Shown: one piece after another, positions 3 to 27,857 of the stretch
How positions within the stretch are numbered: position 1 is the first letter of the stretch
Layout of the letters: each line of letters opens with the position of its first letter
Virus record (IMG/VR): IMGVR_UViG_3300037631_002085
Span: 1 to 35,471 of that record
Direction: 5' to 3' (one strand)
Length of the DNA: 35,471 nt
Source: a virus
Lineage: Duplodnaviria > Caudoviricetes
Notes under the pieces: generated by a model
The model's input: the letters and a program-made list of their open reading frames with translations, nothing else
Told to the model about the DNA's origin: nothing
Database searches by the model: none
Position numbers and translations under genes: made by a program

Positions 3-386
3 TTCTGCGGGTATTGCGACGACCCCCTGCCGCCGAGAGAGAACGGCATATCGCAGTGGTCGAGCGAGTCCTATGCAGGGCTTCCCGTATGGCTTTGCGT
101 GAAGTGTCATTTTCTTGAACGGTGCGAAACGAACCCCGATTATGCGCAGAAGGAAACCTACCAATTGAACAATGAAGGCAAGTGCATTCAATGCTATTTG
201 CCCCTATCTGCGCACGATAACGAACAGGTCGCAGAATGCCTTAGTCTAAGACGCATGAAGGGCGTGCGCTCATGGATTGACTCGCTTAGGCAAACAATCG
301 CTAAGGGCGCAGTCGGATGGACGACCGAAGCGGATATTGAAAAATATCGGCGCATCGTCGAGAATGCAGACCCACGGTTCAAGTGA
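3..386 (+). CDS. Cys-rich hypothetical protein, 5'-truncated by window edge
   Basis: The frame of track ORF 99..386 stays open back to position 3 (FCGYCDD...LCVKCH...KCIQCY); three CxxC motifs; stop overlaps the next start (GTGA). Confidence 0.6.
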   Translation, partial: FCGYCDDPLPPRENGISQWSSESYAGLPVWLCVKCHFLERCETNPDYAQKETYQLNNEGKCIQCYLPLSAHDNEQVAECLSLRRMKGVRSWIDSLRQTIAKGAVGWTTEADIEKYRRIVENADPRFK

Positions 387-1291
387 GCAGATGCCTTAAA
401 TCCCTCCGGCGCACTTGCTACACCATGCACAGGCAGGCGTTTAGACACTGCGCAGAATGGATAATCGCACCGACCGACCAAATCACCGTCGAGCGGTTCT
501 TCGGCTGGCGCAGGGGCGCAAAGCGCCGAATGTTTCAGCCGTGCGCAGTCCTCAAGGCAGGCGAGCATCAAATCCTCGTTGATGGGCTGTCCGAAGTGCT
601 TGCGCTGATTGACGCGATTCAACCGGGCCTCCCCCGCAGTGCGCTCAAGGAGGGGATGAAGGGCGGCTTCATGCTCGAAGGCGAACCGCCGTTTGCGCAC
701 GACCTCCAAGCCTTCTTTCGCGAAAGCGCGTTTGACTTCCTCATTTTCTCTTGCGATTCCGTGCGCATGAGGGAACCCAATTCGGACGCTATGTTCGCCG
801 GTTTGAAAATGCGCAGTGTAGTCGCTCACACGGCCATGAAATCCCCTCCCGCTACACCCGCCCACCTTGGCGCAACATGGGCCATTAGAGCGCCTTACAG
901 GGGCAAAAACGGGCAGGTTCTCGCGCCTGCGCTGGTGTTCGGGGATTATCCGCACATCGTCGTCGCCATGAATCTCACCGATACGCCGTCCTTCTCGTTC
1001 AAAGAGCCGACGCTGATTTCAAGTGTTGTCTGCGCAGTGGGTGGTGGTCTTGACCTGCGCCCACACGCTACGGTTAAGCGCGATGAACCTCGCAGAATTA
1101 TTGTTGAAATTGACCGGCGCATCGCGGATATGCACGAAAGCGGATTTTCGCCCGAACCGTTTCTTGGCGACGACCGCACGCACGGGGGCATGACCTTCAA
1201 GGAACGGGACATGATAGAGCGGCAACGGGCGATTCAGGCGTTTCACGACCTCGACAACCCTATTCTTTCAACTGGTCTGAAAGAATTGTGA
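383..1291 (+). CDS. hypothetical protein (~290-302 aa)
   Basis: Long ORF co-directional with neighbours; no motif recognised; start could be the GTG at 383 or a downstream ATG. Confidence 0.7.
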   Translation: MSRCLKSLRRTCYTMHRQAFRHCAEWIIAPTDQITVERFFGWRRGAKRRMFQPCAVLKAGEHQILVDGLSEVLALIDAIQPGLPRSALKEGMKGGFMLEGEPPFAHDLQAFFRESAFDFLIFSCDSVRMREPNSDAMFAGLKMRSVVAHTAMKSPPATPAHLGATWAIRAPYRGKNGQVLAPALVFGDYPHIVVAMNLTDTPSFSFKEPTLISSVVCAVGGGLDLRPHATVKRDEPRRIIVEIDRRIADMHESGFSPEPFLGDDRTHGGMTFKERDMIERQRAIQAFHDLDNPILSTGLKEL

Positions 1292-18956: not shown

Positions 18957-19946
18957 ATGATACGATTCCCCCGACAGGTCGGCCTCAAGCGTGCGTTTTG
19001 CCGCTCCCGTGAGGACTTTGACGCGTATGTGCGCAGACTCAACGGTCGCTCATGCCTTTACACCTCGCTTTATTCCTTTGATGTCGAGCGGGACTATGAT
19101 TCAGCCGTCATGGACAGGGCATGGTGGGACTTTGACATGAACGACGACTACACGATGGATGAAGTCAAGCACGATGTAGCGGCCTTGATTCAGCGCCTTG
19201 ACGGTGATGTGCGACTCGTCGCCACCGGGCGAGGGTTTCATGTTCACCAACACTTCAAACGACCTGTGCGTGGACGCGATTGGTCGCAACACCTTGACCG
19301 TTATCAGCGCAGAATGGCCGATGGACTCGCCAGCCTCGACGGTGTAGGCTATCCCGAAAAGATGACTCGCATATCGGGAACATTTAATGTCAAGCGCAGA
19401 CGGTGGGCGGTGTCAATACCTGCGCACGACTTTGCGCAAGACCCGTTCAATTTCCCGATTCCCGACAAACCTCTTCCGGTTTCCGACAACATAGACCCGT
19501 TCTTTGGTCGCTTTTCGGAAAGCGAATGCTTTGATTTGGTGAAGTGGGTGCATGACAACCCACCTCCCAAACGCCATACGACGCAACGGGAGTCCACTGT
19601 GTCCGTTGGTTTCCTCGGCGGCGAATGCGCACTTCCGAATTGTCTTGAGCGAGCAATCCAAGTGAGCAATCCTCCGCACCATGTTCGGGTTGCGCTCGTT
19701 CAAGAGATGCGCAGACAATTGGCGTTCTATGCGCACCCGAAGGATTTAACCGATGAGGAAAACGATGAGATAACAAACGGCATCTGCTCGTTCATAGAAA
19801 CATTGGGATGGACGGACTACAACGAAGGCATCACACGAAAATATGTTCATGGCGCAGTGCGCAAATACGCTCATGCGCCGTCGCCCTTTTGGTATAGGAA
19901 ACATAATCTATGCAACGGTGAAGGCTGTTGGTTCTGTGCGCAGTGA
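18957..19946 (+). CDS. archaeo-eukaryotic primase, PriS catalytic domain fused to PriL-like C-terminal domain
   Basis: AWWDFD (DxD); ATGRGFHVH; EKMTRI; C-terminal LPNCL..., HHVRVALV, DYNEGITR, terminal Cys cluster. Confidence 0.82.
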   Translation: MIRFPRQVGLKRAFCRSREDFDAYVRRLNGRSCLYTSLYSFDVERDYDSAVMDRAWWDFDMNDDYTMDEVKHDVAALIQRLDGDVRLVATGRGFHVHQHFKRPVRGRDWSQHLDRYQRRMADGLASLDGVGYPEKMTRISGTFNVKRRRWAVSIPAHDFAQDPFNFPIPDKPLPVSDNIDPFFGRFSESECFDLVKWVHDNPPPKRHTTQRESTVSVGFLGGECALPNCLERAIQVSNPPHHVRVALVQEMRRQLAFYAHPKDLTDEENDEITNGICSFIETLGWTDYNEGITRKYVHGAVRKYAHAPSPFWYRKHNLCNGEGCWFCAQ

Positions 19947-19997: not shown

Positions 19998-20702
19998 ATG
20001 ATATACGCCGACGACCGGGAGAATGAAAGACTTCTCCATCGTCTTTACGCAAAAGTGGGCGACAGAAAGCACGACAACAAAGGACAGTGCATCGTCAAGC
20101 GTTTGAGCGTGGGCGATTACATCATCGGTGAATACGGAGTCGAAGCGAAGGAAATCAATGACCTGTATCGCTCAATCCTCGGCATTGGGCGCAACGGACG
20201 CACAATCAAACATCAATTGCAGGAATTGTGTGAGATGTTTGAATACCCGATTCTTGCGGTGTATAACACCAAATTGAAGCCGTTCTTCAAAGGTCGCAAG
20301 CCGACCCGACAGGAAACGGCGAATGAAATCCTCCGTCAAAAGCGCATCATCAAATCATTCAAAATGACGCTTTATTCCCAATTCCCAAAAGTGCGCATGA
20401 TTGAATTTTTGGATATGGACGAATTTATTGAATGGCTCGCTATTCTCAACATGAACAGCGAAATGCGCAAAACACTGAACCCCGTTGCGAAGCAAAAAGA
20501 ACCTCCGTCAGACCCACGACTGCGTGCGCTCATGGGCGTGCAGGGAATCACCGAGGATATTGCCGTTGCTCTGCTTGAAAAATACGGTTCGCTTGGGGAA
20601 TTGCTCAAGACCAAAGTGAAGCAGAAGGACTTGATGAAAATTAAAGGCATCGGGAGAATCACTGCTCGACGAATCAAGGCGTTGTCTAAGCGGTGGGTTT
20701 AA
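19998..20702 (+). CDS. ERCC4/XPF (Hef/Mus81-like) nuclease with tandem HhH
   Basis: IYADDRE; LSVGDYII; VEAKEINDL; HhH GVQGITED and IKGIGRITA; TTATAA 30 nt upstream of ATG 19998. Confidence 0.88.
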   Translation: MIYADDRENERLLHRLYAKVGDRKHDNKGQCIVKRLSVGDYIIGEYGVEAKEINDLYRSILGIGRNGRTIKHQLQELCEMFEYPILAVYNTKLKPFFKGRKPTRQETANEILRQKRIIKSFKMTLYSQFPKVRMIEFLDMDEFIEWLAILNMNSEMRKTLNPVAKQKEPPSDPRLRALMGVQGITEDIAVALLEKYGSLGELLKTKVKQKDLMKIKGIGRITARRIKALSKRWV

Positions 20703-20708
20703 TAAGAC
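20691..20708 (+). promoter_or_regulatory. promoter motif CGGTGGGTTTAATAAGAC
   Basis: Same family as the other + strand promoters; TTTAAT starts 30 nt upstream of the stem at 20728. Confidence 0.5.
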
Positions 20709-20727
20709 AAAGGGTGTAAGACCTAAA

Positions 20728-20794
20728 TGAGCGAGTCGCACGACTCACCTTCTTGTCATGGTTTCGGTTCCTCCTTCCCTGTGCGGCTCGCTCA
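20728..20794 (+). ncRNA. candidate small hairpin RNA (14-bp terminal stem, 39-nt pyrimidine-rich loop)
   Basis: TGAGCGAGTCGCAC (20728-41) pairs with GTGCGGCTCGCTCA (20781-94) with one U-G wobble on the + strand; promoter motif at the expected distance. Confidence 0.45.
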
Positions 20795-20804
20795 CCCCTT
20801 ATTC

Positions 20805-23800
20805 TCAAAAGGCTGAGAAGTTAAGCGACTGAGCCTGCCCCGCAACGCTGTTTCTGCGCAATCGCAGTGAAAGCGTGTGGACGGTCAAGGATTGATAGCC
20901 TGCGGTGTCCGAACCCTGCGCTGGTTTGCGACTCACCTCAATGTTGATGGTGTTCCCCGGTGTCCCTGCGCCGTCAAGGAAGCGGTTGTTCAGGATGGTG
21001 ATATTTGAACGGTCTGCGCCTTGAGCGATGGTCGTTGTCTGCGCAACACTTGCGCCCGTTTCTTTGCACGATACGGTCGTCGTGATAACGGCTGAACCAC
21101 CTCCCGTGATTGACTCAAGGGTGATGATAGCATCCACATTGATGAAGCCCGTTGAAACATCATTCGGCACACGCACATTCGTTGAATGCTTGTGCGTTTC
21201 GCCTTGTGCGCCCACTTCGGGGTCGTTGATACCTGCGAGAACGAACCCGTCTGCGGTCATAATCGCTGAACCTTCAACGGGCGCTGGACTGCTCTCGATG
21301 CCGTCAATATCGCGGTCTGCTGAAATCGCGATGGCTGGCTTCTTTGCGCCGAGAATGCCGAAGTCGCCCGTGGATAGCAGGGTGTCGCTTGAGAACGAAC
21401 CACGGCCTTTCAGCGTGCGTGTGAAGCCATTTGTGAGCGCATTGGTGGGGATTTTGTTTGCGAAGTCTTGCGAAGTGCCTCCGCCGACCGATTGGCGGGG
21501 AAACACGGGTTGGGGTTTCGACACATCACCATATCCACTTCCGGGCGTGATGGGTTGAGGGCCGGGAGCGGGAGGGGTTGCTTCGGGTCGTGGGGGCTGG
21601 TTGCTTCCGCCGTTGTTCTTGAATACGCGAGCGAGCGCATAAGTGAAGTCCTTCTCCGTGCGCTCAAGGTTGAGAGTGACTTCCTCAACATCTCGCTCTT
21701 TCTGCGACCACGATACACCGCTAATGACCATTGTTTCTGCGCTCAAATCAATGTTCGCATCCGTGTATGAAACGGTCGTGGCCGGGATATAGGCCAAATC
21801 ATCAACGATTGAAATGCGTGGCGCATAATAGGCGGTTCGGTCTGCGTTGTTTGCCGCAGTTGTGGTCGTCGTCGAATGATAATGCGCATATTTGCGGTGG
21901 CCGAGCGGAAATGGGCTATCGGTGTCAAAGGATGAATAGGTGCTGTCGCCCGTGAGGTTGTGCGCATTGTTGGGTGAGAAGGTCGTCATTCTGCGCAGAA
22001 GGCTTCGCAGATATTCAACATCAACAGAAACAACAACTCCACCCGTTCCGTAGGTGCTTGGTGCATCAATGCGATAAAGCCCACTGCCTGAAATCTCCAT
22101 GCTCGAAGAACCCTCAAGCGTTGCCGCTTTCGTCGGAGGATAATGATTCGGCCCACTGCTCAACGGTGTGTTGTAAAAGTCATAATCAAGCAACCAAACA
22201 CGGAAGGTCGCGTCGTCTGCGCTCGTTCCCGAATCAACGGTGATTGCTACACGCAATTCTTTGGAAGTCAATGCGCTCGTCTTGGGGAGGGTTTTGTCAA
22301 TGTGCGCAACGGCTACGCAATTCGCAAGACTATTCGTTCCATAGTGGTGATAACCTTCTTTGTGCGGGATTGGCTGTGCATAAGTCACGCCGTATGTGCC
22401 GCTCGTCCCTGTGAAACCACTGCGCAGATAGATTGTCAAGTCATTCGTTAAATCGCTGATGGTGTTCCAGCCAACGGAGAGGTTCACTTCTGTTCCGTAT
22501 GAAACACCACCTCCCGTTGAGTCCCACTTCGCCTTTTGATTCACACCGTCCCATGTCAAGACCAAAGAACCAATGTTCGTAGTCGGGCTTGAGTCGTTCT
22601 CGCCGGAAGTGGAGGTTCGGACTTCTATGCCGTTGCTCTTTGGGGTATTGTCGTCTAAGAGCGCATAAGCAACGCTTCCTCGGCTTCCAAGAGCCGGGAG
22701 GTCAAATACACCAGCGAGCGTATCAAAGGCGTTCTGCGTGCCTGAGAACGGCATTCCTCCCCATCGGTTCATCCACGAAGCGTTTGACTCTTTATCATAG
22801 TGATAGAATCGGCGGAAGGTGTCTTGCAGATAGCCGTATTTTCCTGTCGTCATTGAATTGGTTTCCCCGGCCTTTCGGAAAATCTTCGCAGACACGCTAA
22901 GGCTCGACTGTTGTTCACGCAGATATTCGGCCTGCGCAAGAGCCAGCGCCTCATCACGGGTGAAAACCTTCGGTTGTTGGAGGATGCGGAAACGCGTGAT
23001 ACCCGTTCCCGATGGTTCGGGGAAGTCCACGAAGTTAGAATTGCCGTTGTAAAACACACGGACATTCGTGATTGCCGTTCCCATTTTGCTCGTCATGTCC
23101 GAAACCGTCAATTCGTTCCGTGTGAGCGAGACCCCCGAATCATATCGTGGTCGAAATGAGAGCATATTGTCTCGGTGGATGCCCCATGTGAAGGTCTGCG
23201 TCTTTCCTTCTGCACCGTTCCCCGCTTTGTCGCTCATTTCATTGAGGATGCTCATAACCGTTTGACCCTTGACATTCATCACACTTCCGAAGGAATCGGT
23301 GTCGTTGCCTGCGTGCGCAGTCTGTGTTGTTGTCATTGTATCAGTGATAGGGACTCCATTAAGTCCGTAAATACACGGCAGAGCGGTATTTTTTTGTGCG
23401 GTTTCGGCGGTTATCATATTGAAAATTGTGCGCAATTTGTCGTGCGCATAATAGGTTCCTTGGTTTTTGCTCACAACAAGTCCTTGAATGTTAAGAATCA
23501 CACGAAGCGGGAATAGCGCCGCAGTCGTTGTATAGACATAGGCTTTCGCAAAATCGCCTGAACCTGTTGCGTCAGTGATGTTAATAGCGGCCAGCGAACC
23601 TGACCCACCAGCCGACACTTCGGATGAAATTAACGCTTCAAGCGTGTTTGGGTCATAGGAGGATGAGTTTTGATAGGAAGTGATATACACACCTGTCAAT
23701 TTGTCGCCAAGTGATGCGTCCACGCCTTTACCCGTCCACGCAAAATAATAAATTAAATCTTCTGCACCACGACCTTCACCAACCTGTGCAATAATTGCAC

Positions 23801-26800
23801 CGTAGCCACTTGTGTCAAACTGCGCATTGTCGCTTACATAAATCTCGGTGTCGCCAAGAACAATGTCTTGTGTAAGAAGCGTAGCCTCATTCAAGAAATA
23901 ATTTCCATTGGGGTGCTTTGGGATTTTGGTTGTGTCCCTGTTTTTGTAGGTGGCGGCGGCATTTTTCCAATAATTGTCAATCAGCGTCGGTGTAGCGGGA
24001 ATAGCAAGGGTTATGTCGCCAAAGTCCACCATTCCTCCGCTTGTATAGCCACTTCGACCGTTGGTTGCGGAAGTGTTGAGGTTAAAATAGCGGGATGCGT
24101 CAATGATAATGAACGCACCGCCCTTTTCATCCCAATTGTGATAGCGTGTGTCAAGAGGTTCGTCGTTGCTTGCACCTCCTTGTGCGCACCAATCTGCGCC
24201 GCTATACGGTTCAATTTCTGCGTCAAAAGTCCAAATGTCAATGTCCTCGCCAATTTTTAACTCCGTATAAATATCGGGTTCTCCGTTTTCATCCAATTGG
24301 TCTGCAACGACCATATTCACTGAATAATTTTGCGTAGTAGGAAGAATAAGACCAAACTCGTTTTTGCGCAGTCCACCGTCTGCGTCTGCCGTTCCATCGT
24401 TGCGCATATCAGCCCAAAGCACATACAAGTGTTTGTAGCCTATGCTTTCATTTACACTGCGAAGAGTATAAATGGTGTGGTCTTGCTTCCATTCACGACG
24501 AATGCCTTTAACGCCTGAAAGCGTGACTTGCCCAAACTGCATAAGTCCGTCTGCTGTGCTTGCGGCTGGTGTCGAGTCAAAGTCTATTGGCATTCGTTTT
24601 TCTTTAAATCGGATAGCATCGGGGTCTTGATAGTGTCGTGGCGTTCCATAATTCCAAGACGACTCTCCTAAATAACGAGAAGCCATGAAAGCGTGTTCAT
24701 TAGTTGTTGGCTCAAACTCGGTGATTTTGTTTGCTTGATATTTTTTTGTCCCGCTTGAATAGGTTTGCACACGAAAAACACCATTTAAACGCACATCATA
24801 AAATCCTGTGTGAATTACAATGTCGCCTTTATTGAGAGCATAGGTGGGACTGCCTTTTTGCTGGAACTCGCTTATGCCATCCCACGAAACGCTTGCGCTA
24901 TATTGAGGGTTGCTAATGTCATCTGCAATCACATACTGCATATCGTTGGTTTCAATGTCAAGCAACTCAATAATTCCATGCTCAAGGTTGTTTGTTTTCC
25001 AATACCACCACATACCGGCTTCTTCAAGAACAATGGTTGTGCTATTTTCGTCAATCGTTGCGTCAAGACCCGTCCAGCCCTGCACTGTTCCGTCGCTATT
25101 GTAGCCTGTTGAGCCGTGCGCAGAAATAAACTGCGCAGAAAGCGGGTGTTGCAGATTGCTTTCTTTTCCTGCTCGCCAAAGAGGGGAGGCATTGATAACT
25201 CCAAACTGCGCACGGAAAAACGGACTTAATGGCAAATCACGCATCCATCGTGCATGAATGTTGCGATGCTTGACTCGTTGAAGAATTTCATCGGTAAGAA
25301 ATCCTTCTCCGTCGAGAATCACAACAGGTTTCACAATTGGAGGCGACCATGTTCGGTGGCTGTTTATGCTGGTGAACGGCTCTGCGTAAAGAATTGAATC
25401 CAATGTTCCAATGTATGACTCAAGAATACCGCCATCATAAGTGTTAGGGACTGCGACAAAAACTTCTGTTGCGCTTTCGACATGCTCAACTGTAAAAACA
25501 TATCCTTCAACATTGGCAAGTGTGCTTAAATCTTCTTCAAAATTAAATAATTGAAATTGGTCGCCAATATTAAGACCGTGATTTGATGTGCAAGTAATAA
25601 GAAGCAATTCGTCTGAATTATTTGCATCTATGGGGTCAGTGTAGTTTTGTGATTTGCGCACAATGCTTCCGACTTTGAAATAATCTGTTTGTGGTGTAGC
25701 ACCTGCCGAAGCACAATATAATTCAATAAAATAAGTCAATCCGTTAATGTCATATTCGCTTCCAAATGAATGCGCATGGATTTTCATGTCATTGACTTGA
25801 AGCGTTCCATCATACGCCGTTCCTTTTAGAATAATGTCGTCGCCTACTGAAATACCTTTAAAGGTAGTTAATCCCGATACAGGCGCAGTTGTTGTGTCAG
25901 TCCATTGAAGCATAACACCGACAACATTTGAAGTGGGAGAGGTTGCACGAATACCTTCCACATCAAGCAAAACATAATCGCCATTCCTTCCTTCCCAATC
26001 ATCTTCGGTGTTTATTGGGCCGTATTCATTTTCATTATTAAACATTTGAATGGCCGACCCACTAAAAAGTCGTGTGCGTGAATCGGGATTTGCGAGGTAT
26101 TTTGTTGCACCTGATGCGTCATAAGAAGAAAAGCCCAATTCACTGTTTCCATAAGAAAGAGGCGTTGCGCCCATCGAAAACATATTTTCAAGAGCCTTTG
26201 TTTCAAAATATCGCTTTTCCAGCGTTCCAACAAGGGATATGTGTTCGTTCAACGAAAACACTGCGTTTTGTCCCGTTTCCCAAGTTGGCAACACACGGTC
26301 AAGAATGCTGAATGAATCTTTTGCAGTGATGGTCGTTGTCAATTTTTTGCTAAACGACTCCTGTTTATATGCGATGCTATCAATCAGTCCCGACCATGCT
26401 GGACGGTTTTCATTGTCGTTAAACATAAGCAATCGCCATTCTGCGGCAGTCGTTCCCGTAGTAAGCGCAGAAAATGCGTATTCGTGCGCAGAATCCATCA
26501 GCGTCACTGCGCAGGTTGAAATGCTATTCACACGCGATTGCATTTTTGCGTCATTGATTGTGGGAATCTCGTTGCCTTCAATGTTCCAAGCAAGTGGAAA
26601 CATCACTGCGGCTCTATCAATCAAGGTATCGACGACAATAGCGCCTTCGCTTCCGTTGCTCGTCCAAACGCCGTCAAGCGACCAACCAACAGCAGTGTTC
26701 CTATCAACACTACCAATAGAACCTGAATCAAAATGGACTGTGTTATCGTCTGCGTATGCTTTCCAAGTCCCTGCTGTAAAGTCAAAAGCAATAAAAATAT

Positions 26801-27857
26801 CAATCCATGTGTTGCTTTCGACATAAGGTGTTTCCACGGGTGCAGGATATTCCCAAGCGTTATGCGTAGTTAAGCCAAGAGAAGAAAAATCAATTGATAC
26901 AGACGCAAGAACAGTTGTGTCGTCATAGTCGTCTGTTGATTTGTCATAGGTTGCAGTGGATTTGTAGCCCACTTTTAATTCATAACTGTCAAAAAACGCA
27001 TCCGAGATAGCGTGTGCGGCCATTCGCAAATGAAACATTTCACCAATGCCTCTCATACGCAATTCGCCTGTGTATGTAAGCAATCGTTCTGTTCCCGACG
27101 CATCCTGCGCATAAAACGACTGAATTAAAAACTGTTGGCGAGAAGGAGATTGAATGTTTTGCATAATTTTTCCCGGTGAGTAGTCGGTCGTGTCAAGCGG
27201 AGTTAAAGGTGCTTCTCCCGTGTAAATGCTGGCAAAGTTAATGTGCTTTTGCACAACACCCCACTGCGCAGAATCCTCTTGTAGTATGCGAACATGACTG
27301 CCGAGATTTTGCGTGTGGTTTGACGGAAAATAATCTTCATCTGCATTGGTGTATGGACTCATGCCGAAGGTATGGTCTATTTCACCAACAGGCGCATAAT
27401 ATACGCCAGCCGTGTCATGTCCGTTAAAAAACGAAAGATATGCGTCTGAGGAATCTCCATTTAATTTGTAGCGATTTGCGAGAAAAGAGGATGGGATTTG
27501 AAAACGAGTCCTTGATTCATAATTGCTTGCATCGGATAGCGCAAAATCAATTGTGAGCCATTCGTGCATCCCGTTGTTTTTGCGCAGAAGGTTAAGGTCG
27601 GTTGAATTAAACAAATCGTCGGTAATGTTTGGGTCGCTATATTCCCAATGCGTTGTGCGCAAACGGTCTGCGTATGTGAATCGGTATCGTGGGTTAAGCG
27701 TGGCTTCTGCGCCAAATACCGAACCATAGTGCGTTTTTGTGTGGTCGTGAATGCGCACATTCGCAACATTGAGGTCGTCTGCAACTGCGCGTGCGCTATG
27801 AAAGTCGTCATAATAGCCGCAAAGCCAAAAGGAATGTTTAAAATCGCTCGTTCTCAA
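20805..27857 (-). CDS. giant minor tail protein (hub/central fibre/receptor-binding), 2350 aa
   Basis: Directly downstream of the tape measure; beta-rich, Thr/Ser/Gly/Asp-rich; hub-like segments (WSGLIDSI...ITAKDSFSILD; ITNVRVFY; EALALAQAEYLREQQ..SVSAKI); Pro-rich linker near the C-terminus. Confidence 0.75.
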   Translation of the reverse strand: MRTSDFKHSFWLCGYYDDFHSARAVADDLNVANVRIHDHTKTHYGSVFGAEATLNPRYRFTYADRLRTTHWEYSDPNITDDLFNSTDLNLLRKNNGMHEWLTIDFALSDASNYESRTRFQIPSSFLANRYKLNGDSSDAYLSFFNGHDTAGVYYAPVGEIDHTFGMSPYTNADEDYFPSNHTQNLGSHVRILQEDSAQWGVVQKHINFASIYTGEAPLTPLDTTDYSPGKIMQNIQSPSRQQFLIQSFYAQDASGTERLLTYTGELRMRGIGEMFHLRMAAHAISDAFFDSYELKVGYKSTATYDKSTDDYDDTTVLASVSIDFSSLGLTTHNAWEYPAPVETPYVESNTWIDIFIAFDFTAGTWKAYADDNTVHFDSGSIGSVDRNTAVGWSLDGVWTSNGSEGAIVVDTLIDRAAVMFPLAWNIEGNEIPTINDAKMQSRVNSISTCAVTLMDSAHEYAFSALTTGTTAAEWRLLMFNDNENRPAWSGLIDSIAYKQESFSKKLTTTITAKDSFSILDRVLPTWETGQNAVFSLNEHISLVGTLEKRYFETKALENMFSMGATPLSYGNSELGFSSYDASGATKYLANPDSRTRLFSGSAIQMFNNENEYGPINTEDDWEGRNGDYVLLDVEGIRATSPTSNVVGVMLQWTDTTTAPVSGLTTFKGISVGDDIILKGTAYDGTLQVNDMKIHAHSFGSEYDINGLTYFIELYCASAGATPQTDYFKVGSIVRKSQNYTDPIDANNSDELLLITCTSNHGLNIGDQFQLFNFEEDLSTLANVEGYVFTVEHVESATEVFVAVPNTYDGGILESYIGTLDSILYAEPFTSINSHRTWSPPIVKPVVILDGEGFLTDEILQRVKHRNIHARWMRDLPLSPFFRAQFGVINASPLWRAGKESNLQHPLSAQFISAHGSTGYNSDGTVQGWTGLDATIDENSTTIVLEEAGMWWYWKTNNLEHGIIELLDIETNDMQYVIADDISNPQYSASVSWDGISEFQQKGSPTYALNKGDIVIHTGFYDVRLNGVFRVQTYSSGTKKYQANKITEFEPTTNEHAFMASRYLGESSWNYGTPRHYQDPDAIRFKEKRMPIDFDSTPAASTADGLMQFGQVTLSGVKGIRREWKQDHTIYTLRSVNESIGYKHLYVLWADMRNDGTADADGGLRKNEFGLILPTTQNYSVNMVVADQLDENGEPDIYTELKIGEDIDIWTFDAEIEPYSGADWCAQGGASNDEPLDTRYHNWDEKGGAFIIIDASRYFNLNTSATNGRSGYTSGGMVDFGDITLAIPATPTLIDNYWKNAAATYKNRDTTKIPKHPNGNYFLNEATLLTQDIVLGDTEIYVSDNAQFDTSGYGAIIAQVGEGRGAEDLIYYFAWTGKGVDASLGDKLTGVYITSYQNSSSYDPNTLEALISSEVSAGGSGSLAAINITDATGSGDFAKAYVYTTTAALFPLRVILNIQGLVVSKNQGTYYAHDKLRTIFNMITAETAQKNTALPCIYGLNGVPITDTMTTTQTAHAGNDTDSFGSVMNVKGQTVMSILNEMSDKAGNGAEGKTQTFTWGIHRDNMLSFRPRYDSGVSLTRNELTVSDMTSKMGTAITNVRVFYNGNSNFVDFPEPSGTGITRFRILQQPKVFTRDEALALAQAEYLREQQSSLSVSAKIFRKAGETNSMTTGKYGYLQDTFRRFYHYDKESNASWMNRWGGMPFSGTQNAFDTLAGVFDLPALGSRGSVAYALLDDNTPKSNGIEVRTSTSGENDSSPTTNIGSLVLTWDGVNQKAKWDSTGGGVSYGTEVNLSVGWNTISDLTNDLTIYLRSGFTGTSGTYGVTYAQPIPHKEGYHHYGTNSLANCVAVAHIDKTLPKTSALTSKELRVAITVDSGTSADDATFRVWLLDYDFYNTPLSSGPNHYPPTKAATLEGSSSMEISGSGLYRIDAPSTYGTGGVVVSVDVEYLRSLLRRMTTFSPNNAHNLTGDSTYSSFDTDSPFPLGHRKYAHYHSTTTTTAANNADRTAYYAPRISIVDDLAYIPATTVSYTDANIDLSAETMVISGVSWSQKERDVEEVTLNLERTEKDFTYALARVFKNNGGSNQPPRPEATPPAPGPQPITPGSGYGDVSKPQPVFPRQSVGGGTSQDFANKIPTNALTNGFTRTLKGRGSFSSDTLLSTGDFGILGAKKPAIAISADRDIDGIESSPAPVEGSAIMTADGFVLAGINDPEVGAQGETHKHSTNVRVPNDVSTGFINVDAIITLESITGGGSAVITTTVSCKETGASVAQTTTIAQGADRSNITILNNRFLDGAGTPGNTINIEVSRKPAQGSDTAGYQSLTVHTLSLRLRRNSVAGQAQSLNFSAF

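What the first reader, a model, noticed from the sequence alone, without database searches (positions are those of the whole stretch)
20691..20804. Candidate viral small RNA displaying anti-Shine-Dalgarno sequences at the early/late junction
Seen: a promoter-family motif lies exactly 30 nt before a 14-bp stem (20728-41/20781-94). Its single non-canonical pair is U-G on the + strand but A-C on the - strand, favouring a + RNA. The 39-nt loop contains CUCACCU (20744-50) and UUCCUCCUU (20768-76), complementary to the GGTGA and GGAGG SD motifs used by genes here, plus CAU. An alternative hairpin GAGUC-GCAC-GACUC (20733-46) could compete. Read on the - strand, the loop is a well-formed initiation site and minigene: AAGGAGGAACCGAAACC-ATG ACA AGA AGG TGA (MTRR, 20759-20745). 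Known: the archaeal 16S 3' end carries AUCACCUCC. Inference: an sRNA that silences SD-led mRNAs while sparing leaderless ones, an antisense regulator of one target, or a ribosome-trapping minigene at the end of the late transcript.
Basis: partly seen in the sequence, partly recalled or inferred. Interest (0 to 1): 0.75.

Follow-up and report, generated by a model that had tools for sequence, protein, structure and literature searches.

The report
Archaeal-virus small RNA mirroring ribosome-binding sites
A group of marine viruses that likely infect archaea keeps, right behind a promoter-like signal, a conserved 55-85-base hairpin whose open loop mirrors ribosome-binding sites, so it is likely a small RNA gene that would damp translation of some messages, though no transcript or target has been shown.

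Summary
All 42 distinct ERCC4/tail-gene junctions of this virus clade carry the same design: an archaeal TATA-like box about 30 nt upstream, an 11-17-bp terminal stem whose sequence turns over while pairing is kept (25 G-U, 0 A-C pairs, so a + strand RNA), and a pyrimidine-rich loop with UCCUC/CCUCC motifs beside the stem. A tRNA gene follows directly in 10 of 43. The same design sits at non-convergent sites in three distant relatives and, with a significant covariance-model score, in an unrelated 140-kb archaeal-type virus. The MTRR minigene, the 29-aa ORF and the alternative hairpin are not conserved. No Rfam family matches; no RNA run was listed. Function is inferred: likely pairing with Shine-Dalgarno regions. 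It would not simply split SD-led from leaderless messages, because viral late genes are SD-led too; early-strand genes favour GGAGG-type and late genes GUGA-type SDs, which suggests an early-to-late damper, but loop composition alone explains most of that preference. No shared single viral target was found; host genomes were unreachable. This scan has noted similar anti-SD RNAs before in other phage genomes.

The parts
20691..20705 (+). Promoter-like box: purine-rich BRE-like stretch and TATA-like TTTAATAA (20698-20705), overlapping the ERCC4 stop codon
   Evidence: TATA-like match at -32..-21 in 42 of 43 junctions; position counts T-29 42/43, A-27 39/43, A-24 41/43; same motif family precedes ATGs by 29-31 nt at window 7071, 12133, 13670, 17605
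20718..20729 (+). A/T at -11/-10 and T^G initiator; predicted start at G20729 (range 20727-20729)
   Evidence: A or T at -11 in 36/43 and at -10 in 41/43, T at -1 in 41/43; start site inferred, not mapped
20728..20794 (+). Predicted small RNA body, 67 nt: 14-bp terminal stem closing a 39-nt pyrimidine-rich loop
   Evidence: fold; conservation; covariation
20728..20741 (+). 5' arm of the terminal stem
20781..20794 (+). 3' arm of the terminal stem
20744..20750 (+). 5' anti-SD-like site (CUCACCU here; usually CCUC-type in relatives)
   Evidence: exact CUCACCU in only 5 of 43; 17 of 43 sites lie in the first quarter of the loop
20762..20767 (+). Central UUUCGG motif, role unexplained
   Evidence: UUYGG in 37 of 43; UUCGG in 13 of 25 representatives against 2.3 in dinucleotide shuffles
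20768..20776 (+). 3' anti-SD-like site UUCCUCCUU
   Evidence: UCCUC in 36 of 43, 22 of 25 representatives against 8.7 shuffled; 18 of 43 sites lie in the last quarter of the loop
20795..20802 (+). Short pyrimidine-rich tail, possible 3' end
   Evidence: mean pyrimidine fraction 0.76 over 8 nt in 25 representatives; end not mapped
19998..20702 (+). ERCC4/HhH nuclease gene, last gene of the replication strand (neighbour)
   Evidence: Pfam ERCC4, HHH_5
20805..27857 (-). 2350-aa gene after the tape-measure gene, last gene of the structural strand; its stop lies 10 nt from the stem (neighbour)
   Evidence: gap 1-10 nt in 29 of 39 junctions with a measured gap
20745..20759 (-). MTRR minigene: incidental, not conserved
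20727..20816 (+). 29-aa ORF: incidental, frameshifted in the closest relatives
   Evidence: ATG at the start site in 9 of 43, no shared peptide

Best explanation
The element is a conserved hairpin behind a TATA-like box and is likely a stand-alone small RNA gene whose roughly 67-nt product would pair through its open pyrimidine-rich loop with purine-rich (GGAGG/GAGGA-type) ribosome-binding regions of many messages and so would damp their translation. Shown: conservation, stem covariation, strand bias, fixed promoter spacing, motif enrichment and position. Inferred: transcription from G20729 with the replication-module promoters; a terminal stem that protects both ends and holds one or two anti-SD sites single-stranded; broad rather than single-target pairing; stronger effect on early-strand viral (and probably host) messages than on late messages, which mostly use GUGA-type SDs.
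For: 42 of 42 distinct junctions with ERCC4 identity of 58% or more carry the design, a clade with SH-aLRT 99 in a quick tree. 5' arms pair with their own 3' arm at -25.9 against -12.9 kcal/mol crosswise, best with their own in 22 of 25; 5 of 12 pairs change on both sides in a plain MAFFT alignment of 13, 11 of 12 in a model-fitted one of 19. 25 G-U and 0 A-C in 407 stem cells. TATA/initiator spacing fixed. tRNA-Pro or tRNA-Ala genes start 6-14 nt behind the stem on the same strand in 10 of 43. UCCUC 22/25 and CCUCC 16/25 against 8.7 and 4.9 in dinucleotide shuffles, 0 of 500 as high; every representative has a CCUC/UCACC site, 17 of 25 have two, mean unpaired probability 0.83, 35 of 43 sites in the outer quarters of the loop. 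Same design at tandem sites in G019, G021, G026 and at 5 of 8 loci upstream of one gene family; model R1, trained without it, scores the element of the unrelated virus G097 at 37.3 bits, E 1.9e-6. GGAGG/GAGGA/AGGAG precede 115 of 314 early-strand and 18 of 133 late-strand genes in the clade, 22 of 70 and 6 of 50 in three distant carriers, 37 of 208 and 22 of 145 in nine genomes where no element was found. Loops pair better with early than late start regions in 12 of 12 genomes.
Against: No transcript, target or host genome was examined. Shuffled loops give most of the early-late preference (-1.18 against -1.64 kcal/mol; observed beyond shuffled in 8 of 12 genomes), so composition, not the exact motif, carries it. 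The genomes are related, so motif and SD counts are not independent; G018 (no element found) has the same early GGAGG-type share as its relative G019 (10/36 and 9/32), and strict GGAGG is early-biased in non-carriers too (21/208 against 3/145). The UUYGG motif is as conserved as the anti-SD motif and is not explained. Second-site elements of G019, G021 and G026 are not significant with either model: same design, homology unproven. G097 was found by a pattern taken from the stem, which biases its score. U/C-rich single strands are also what Sm-like proteins and termination factors bind (recalled).
Confidence: 0.5

Rival explanations
1. Protein decoy: the RNA is real, but the stem only presents a U/C-rich single strand (with UUYGG) that titrates a host RNA-binding protein such as the Sm-like protein, a U-tract-reading termination/cleavage factor or a defence nuclease.
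For: Loop is 43% U and 33% C; UUYGG in 37 of 43 has no SD complement; a shuffled loop pairs with start regions nearly as well; presence in unrelated viruses fits a host protein target. Archaeal Lsm binds sRNAs (PMC3432209, passages).
Against: UCCUC/CCUCC exceed dinucleotide shuffles and cluster next to the stem; long U runs are not a constant feature.
Confidence: 0.2
2. Antisense regulator of one or a few specific host (or viral) messages, pairing over SD, spacer and start codon, with UUYGG as part of the seed.
For: In the window the loop reads as the complement of a complete initiation region; CAU in 28 of 43 loops; one genome (G007) has a start region at -38.0 against -26.9 +/- 2.2 for shuffled loops; precedent in Methanosarcina (PMC3432209, passage).
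Against: In 8 of 9 genomes the best viral start region is no better than with shuffled loops, and top hits are not orthologous; CAU is barely enriched (14 of 25 against 10.9); loop length (30-60 nt) and motif spacing vary.
Confidence: 0.12
3. Cis element of the junction: terminator or 3' stabiliser of the convergent early and late transcripts, or merely a leader for downstream tRNA genes.
For: It fills the gap between convergent genes; the late gene's stop is 1-10 nt away in 29 of 39; both strands fold; tRNAs follow in 10 of 43.
Against: A TATA box and initiator at fixed distance are not needed by a terminator; G-U bias is one-sided; most of the other 83 junctions have overlapping stops and no hairpin; same design at tandem sites, where the next gene appears to have its own TATA-like box; 33 of 43 have no tRNA behind.
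Confidence: 0.1
4. DNA-level hairpin (replication or packaging signal, for example a pyrimidine-rich primase site).
For: Single copy per genome examined; near the turning point of cumulative GC skew; virus encodes a primase-like protein next door.
Against: G-U/G-T tolerance on one strand only, promoter anatomy, tRNA passengers, and other positions in other genomes.
Confidence: 0.04
5. Coding function: minus-strand MTRR minigene or the + strand 29-aa ORF.
For: Both are intact in the window.
Against: Neither is conserved: 12 of 43 and 9 of 43 have any such start, with unrelated peptides; both break in 97-99% identical relatives.
Confidence: 0.02

Closest known systems
Cuckoo RNA family (RSs0680/CcsR, NfeR1) of Alphaproteobacteria (PMC4615179, passages read)
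   Same: Variable stems, conserved anti-SD-like pyrimidine motif displayed in loops; proposed or shown pairing with ribosome-binding sites.
   Different: Cuckoo RNAs have 2-4 adjacent hairpins of 24-50 nt with CCUCCUCCC in 9-27-nt loops; this RNA has one terminal stem, a 30-60-nt loop with one or two shorter UCCUC-type sites and UUYGG, an archaeal promoter and a viral location. No Rfam match.
C-rich-loop sRNAs of Firmicutes: RNAIII UCCC loops (passage in PMC4615179); RsaE, LhrC (recalled)
   Same: Unpaired C/U-rich seeds that pair with SD sequences of several targets.
   Different: Bacterial chromosomal genes with rho-independent terminators and different folds; no sequence relation tested or found.
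Methanosarcina mazei trans-acting sRNA that masks an RBS and start codon (PMC3432209, passage; recalled as sRNA162)
   Same: Archaeal precedent for translation control by RBS masking.
   Different: Cellular, with defined targets; here viral, with no target identified.
Anti-SD hairpin RNAs noted by this scan in other phage genomes (e1-5963582, e1-6128094, e1-5944120, e1-9824112 and others; unchecked AI notes)
   Same: Viral, pyrimidine loops mirroring SD, often beside tRNA genes, proposed early-to-late control.
   Different: Described as multi-hairpin or small-loop RNAs of bacterial phages; none of the eight listed is described as archaeal or as a single terminal stem with a large loop.

Membership tests
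Any Rfam 15 family | Match at gathering score | tested here: not met
   Window 20400-21100: one chance-level hit outside the element; 7 + 7 relative loci: only tRNAs and sub-threshold hits elsewhere
Cuckoo RNA | 2-4 adjacent hairpins of 24-50 nt | tested here: not met
   One terminal stem, 54-86 nt overall
Cuckoo RNA | CCUCCUCCC in each hairpin loop | tested here: not met
   Enriched motifs are UCCUC, CCUCC(U), UUCGGU
Cuckoo RNA | Alphaproteobacterial host | tested here: not met
   Archaeal-type viral gene set and promoters
Trans-acting anti-SD sRNA (functional class) | Own promoter, non-coding, structured | tested here: met
   By sequence only:
Trans-acting anti-SD sRNA (functional class) | Unpaired conserved anti-SD motif | tested here: met
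   complementarity judged against SD motifs of the viruses' own genes; the host 16S tail is recalled, not read
Trans-acting anti-SD sRNA (functional class) | Discrete transcript | not testable with these tools
   No RNA run was listed
Trans-acting anti-SD sRNA (functional class) | Pairing with and repression of target mRNAs | tested here: inconclusive
Y RNA / box C/D / H/ACA / tRNA-like | Conserved Ro-binding bulged helix, C/D or ACA boxes, cloverleaf (features recalled) | tested here: not met
   Stem sequence not conserved beyond the first U-A and G-C pairs; no Rfam or ARAGORN hit on the element
Magrovirus (virus carrying the element) | PolB, clamp loader, primase, ERCC4 nuclease; replication and structural modules on opposite strands | tested here: met
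   Pfam PolB, RFC-like AAA, ERCC4, tape measure, tail tube; PolB nearest to haloarchaeal tailed viruses among cultured phages; features from PMC10160649, PMC5434244, PMC12999244. The primase label of 18957-19946 is my reading; no Pfam or PHROG hit
Magrovirus (virus carrying the element) | Genome of 90-110 kb (ICTV profile) and Poseidoniales host | tested here: inconclusive
   Complete relatives are 61-65 kb; no classified magrovirus record was available; host inferred

The most novel reading that the evidence does not exclude
A small-RNA family shared by unrelated marine archaeal viruses that acts as a translational early-to-late switch: it blocks GGAGG-type ribosome-binding sites of early viral and host messages, while late genes escape by using the other half of the SD (GUGA), so the virus has split the SD code between its two gene classes.
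Probability: 0.25. Interest if true: 0.85.

Novelty: new variant of a known kind. Interest (0 to 1): 0.64.

Why it matters
The searches run here found no small regulatory RNA described for magroviruses or any anti-SD RNA for an archaeal virus. The family is well supported by comparative evidence and is invisible to Rfam because its stem sequence turns over. If it damps SD-led translation, it gives a simple, testable handle on host take-over and temporal control in viruses of abundant, uncultured marine archaea, and it extends to archaea a theme this scan has noted repeatedly in other phages. The early GGAGG versus late GUGA bias yields a direct reporter test.

Tried and rejected
RNA evidence: no RNA holder was listed; this is no evidence either way and no reads were laid. 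A loose DNA pattern gave 119 apparently chance loci, used only as a background set. Plain MAFFT of 40 elements did not align the stems; subsets and a covariance model were used instead. Self-target search in 9 genomes (window plus 8 relatives): best start region at shuffled-loop level in 8. BLAST with the G019 element found 0 of 18 records. No element found in G018, G020, G022-G025, G027, G029 by architecture scans or models; G028 has a shorter, doubtful candidate. G097 has no relative in viral contigs. ERCC4 and the primase-like protein have no match in the phage collection; cluster look-up gave no organism names. Literature searches with no describing paper: plus term searches in three magrovirus papers. 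Rejected readings: minigene, 29-aa ORF, competing hairpin, tRNA, known Rfam family.

Full report
Setting. The window is half of a tailed-virus genome with a + strand replication module (RFC-like AAA, PolB, methylase, PD-(D/E)XK, ERCC4/HhH nuclease) and a - strand structural module (tape measure, tail tube, a 2350-aa gene). PolB is closest to haloarchaeal tailed viruses among cultured phages. This fits published magrovirus descriptions (PMC10160649, one passage and section 15 read; PMC5434244, passages; PMC12999244, whole text), but complete relatives are 61-65 kb against 90-110 kb in the ICTV profile, and no classified record could be compared, so 'magrovirus-like, likely Poseidoniales host' is inference. 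The finding fills the 102-nt gap between the two convergent modules.

Observation. All coordinates are right. The hairpin is more stable than shuffles (z -4.67 on +, -2.89 on -), and is the strongest of 25 long-range hairpins in the window and the only one behind a TATA-like box. The alternative hairpin does not compete in the full-length fold.

Conservation. ERCC4 relatives were collected from viral, metagenome and genome contigs. One search examined 208 sequences; 126 distinct junctions remained after dropping duplicates, truncated loci and loci without a full ERCC4 end (the window collapsed into the identical L001). All 42 with ERCC4 identity of 58% or more have a stem starting 23-38 nt after the stop (25-26 in most) and a pyrimidine-rich loop; of the other 84 only L237 (52%) does, and most of the rest have overlapping stop codons and no spacer. 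The 42 form one clade (SH-aLRT 99; quick tree of 90 of the 126 rows). Elements are 54-86 nt with 30-60-nt loops.

Structure and strand. Stem sequence turns over while pairing holds. Alignment-free: own-arm pairing -25.9 kcal/mol against -12.9 for 600 cross pairs among 25 representatives, best with own arm in 22 of 25. MAFFT subsets: 1 of 14 pairs with a two-sided change among the four closest, 5 of 12 among 13 others with one broken cell. Model-fitted alignment of 19: 11 of 12 pairs, 99.1% of cells paired, score 0.76 against 0.24 shuffled and at most 0.16 slid (a fitted alignment leans towards its structure). In 37 of 43 elements with an ungapped outer helix there are 25 G-U, 0 A-C and 7 other mismatches in 407 cells; a looser two-strand count gave 18 internal G-U on + and 7 on -. 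A model trained on 13 members of another subclade finds the window element on + only (23.9 bits, filters off; it was missed with default filters).

Promoter. Relative to the first G of the stem there is a TATA-like box at -30 to -24, A/T at -11/-10 and T at -1 (42 of 43), with free sequence between. This matches archaeal promoter anatomy (recalled). The same motif precedes ATGs by 29-31 nt at four + strand genes of the window. In 10 of 43 junctions a tRNA-Pro(UGG) or tRNA-Ala(UGC) gene starts 6-14 nt behind the stem on the same strand, gained or lost at least three times, which is most simply read as sharing this promoter. Transcription itself was not observed.

Loop. Composition is 43% U, 33% C. 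Against dinucleotide shuffles of the loops, UCCUC (22 of 25 against 8.7), CCUCC (16 against 4.9), UUCGG (13 against 2.3) and GGUU (21 against 9.4) are enriched, 0 of 500 shuffles as high; CAU (14 against 10.9) and UCACC (5 against 2.5) hardly are. All 25 have a CCUC or UCACC site, 17 have two, predicted unpaired (0.83), with 35 of 43 sites in the outer quarters of the loop. The representatives are related, so these counts are not independent. Neither ORF reading is conserved.

Other sites. Architecture scans of 12 distant genomes found the same design in G019, G021 and G026, between co-directional early-strand genes, and upstream of one conserved gene in 5 of 8 loci with stem changes that keep pairing. 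None was found in eight others; G028 is doubtful. These second-site elements do not score significantly with models R1 or R2. A stem pattern scan returned 18 loci: 10 clade junctions, 7 that look like chance, and L439 in G097, a complete 140-kb virus with thermosome, MCM, primase and PolB that shares almost no genes with the clade. Its single element has the full design and scores 37.3 bits with R1, with the caveat that the pattern selected for the stem. This argues for a stand-alone gene rather than a junction terminator, and for a target common to different viruses.

Targets. No shared viral target: in 8 of 9 genomes the best start region pairs no better than with shuffled loops. There is, however, an SD-type bias ('early' = ERCC4 strand, 'late' = opposite strand; automatic gene calls kept if they had homologues): GGAGG/GAGGA/AGGAG before 115 of 314 early and 18 of 133 late genes, GTGA before 64 of 314 and 45 of 133; it holds with SD-blind start choice and by gene family (26 of 51 against 2 of 21). 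Distant carriers show it (22 of 70 against 6 of 50); genomes without a detected element do not for the broad motif (37 of 208 against 22 of 145) but do for strict GGAGG (21 of 208 against 3 of 145), and G018 resembles G019. Loops pair better with early than late start regions in 12 of 12 genomes, but shuffled loops give -1.18 of the -1.64 kcal/mol difference. GTGA also contains a stop codon, so operon coupling may contribute (inference). The result is consistent with a broad, composition-driven damper that favours early-type SDs, and does not prove it.

Mechanism. Most likely (0.5): a promoter-driven, end-protected small RNA pairs through its loop with purine-rich ribosome-binding regions and lowers their translation. 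Rivals: protein decoy (0.2), one specific host target (0.12), junction cis element (0.1), DNA signal (0.04), peptide (0.02). That it is a + strand non-coding RNA at all I put near 0.9. The late transcript, if it reads through its stop, would be antisense to the RNA; whether that matters is open.

Comparison and novelty. No Rfam family matches. It works, if the inference holds, like cuckoo and other C/U-rich-loop sRNAs (PMC4615179, passages) and like the RBS-masking sRNA of Methanosarcina (PMC3432209, passages), but fails cuckoo membership on fold, motif and host. Three magrovirus papers do not contain 'small RNA', 'non-coding' or 'intergenic' in their main text (PMC11706807 seen as passages only), and searches listed no description; supplements and subscription papers were not seen and could hold an annotation. 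PMC13108676 (whole text) did not identify G097. Earlier notes of this scan describe anti-SD hairpin RNAs in other phage genomes, some with the same early-to-late idea; they are unchecked and are not counted as support. No note was listed for this genome or look-alike stretches. Verdict: a real, uncatalogued viral RNA family, new variant of a known kind, interest 0.64.

Noticed in passing
L439:1201-1280 (G097:C1:31434-31513): Same RNA design in an unrelated complete 140-kb archaeal-type virus, about 1 kb from a tRNA-Arg(CCG) and upstream of a serine recombinase; the virus also encodes a thermosome, MCM, two primase-domain proteins and an Rpb1-domain protein.
   Followed up: partly
L003:3809-3881, L005:3811-3883: tRNA-Pro(UGG) behind the element has an unusual anticodon loop (U at position 37; A at 33 in L003).
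   Followed up: no
whole genomes G003-G010, G018-G029, window: Early-strand genes favour GGAGG-type and late-strand genes GTGA-type SD motifs across these viruses.
   Followed up: partly
window 4960, 7071, 9656, 12133, 13670, 17605, 20698 (+): A promoter-like family GG-TTTA(T/A)(A/G) in the replication module; four copies precede an ATG by 29-31 nt (leaderless-like), two lead into SD-bearing leaders.
   Followed up: partly
L349:2588-2926 (-), G007: One early gene start region pairs with that genome's loop at -38.0 kcal/mol against -26.9 +/- 2.2 for shuffles; not seen in other genomes.
   Followed up: no
window 383-1291; L396:2220-2930; L370:2639-3370: A conserved unannotated protein family (no Pfam hit for the window member) found across these viruses; the second-site RNA lies just upstream of it in 5 of 8 loci.
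   Followed up: partly
L416/L417:800-960 (G018): Upstream of the same gene, a different multi-stem fold replaces the element.
   Followed up: no
L390:2860-2965 (G024): AT-rich region of nested inverted and direct repeats, possibly an origin or terminal signal.
   Followed up: no
L405:1763-1815 (G028): Shorter TATA-plus-hairpin candidate with a C-rich loop right after the terminase stop, at a convergent junction.
   Followed up: no
L327: A 61-kb contig with a magrovirus-like ERCC4 gene lies inside a genome bin titled as a bacterium, probably mis-binned.
   Followed up: no
window 20805-27857 (-): 2350-aa structural-module protein with no Pfam or PHROG match, present at similar length throughout the clade.
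   Followed up: no
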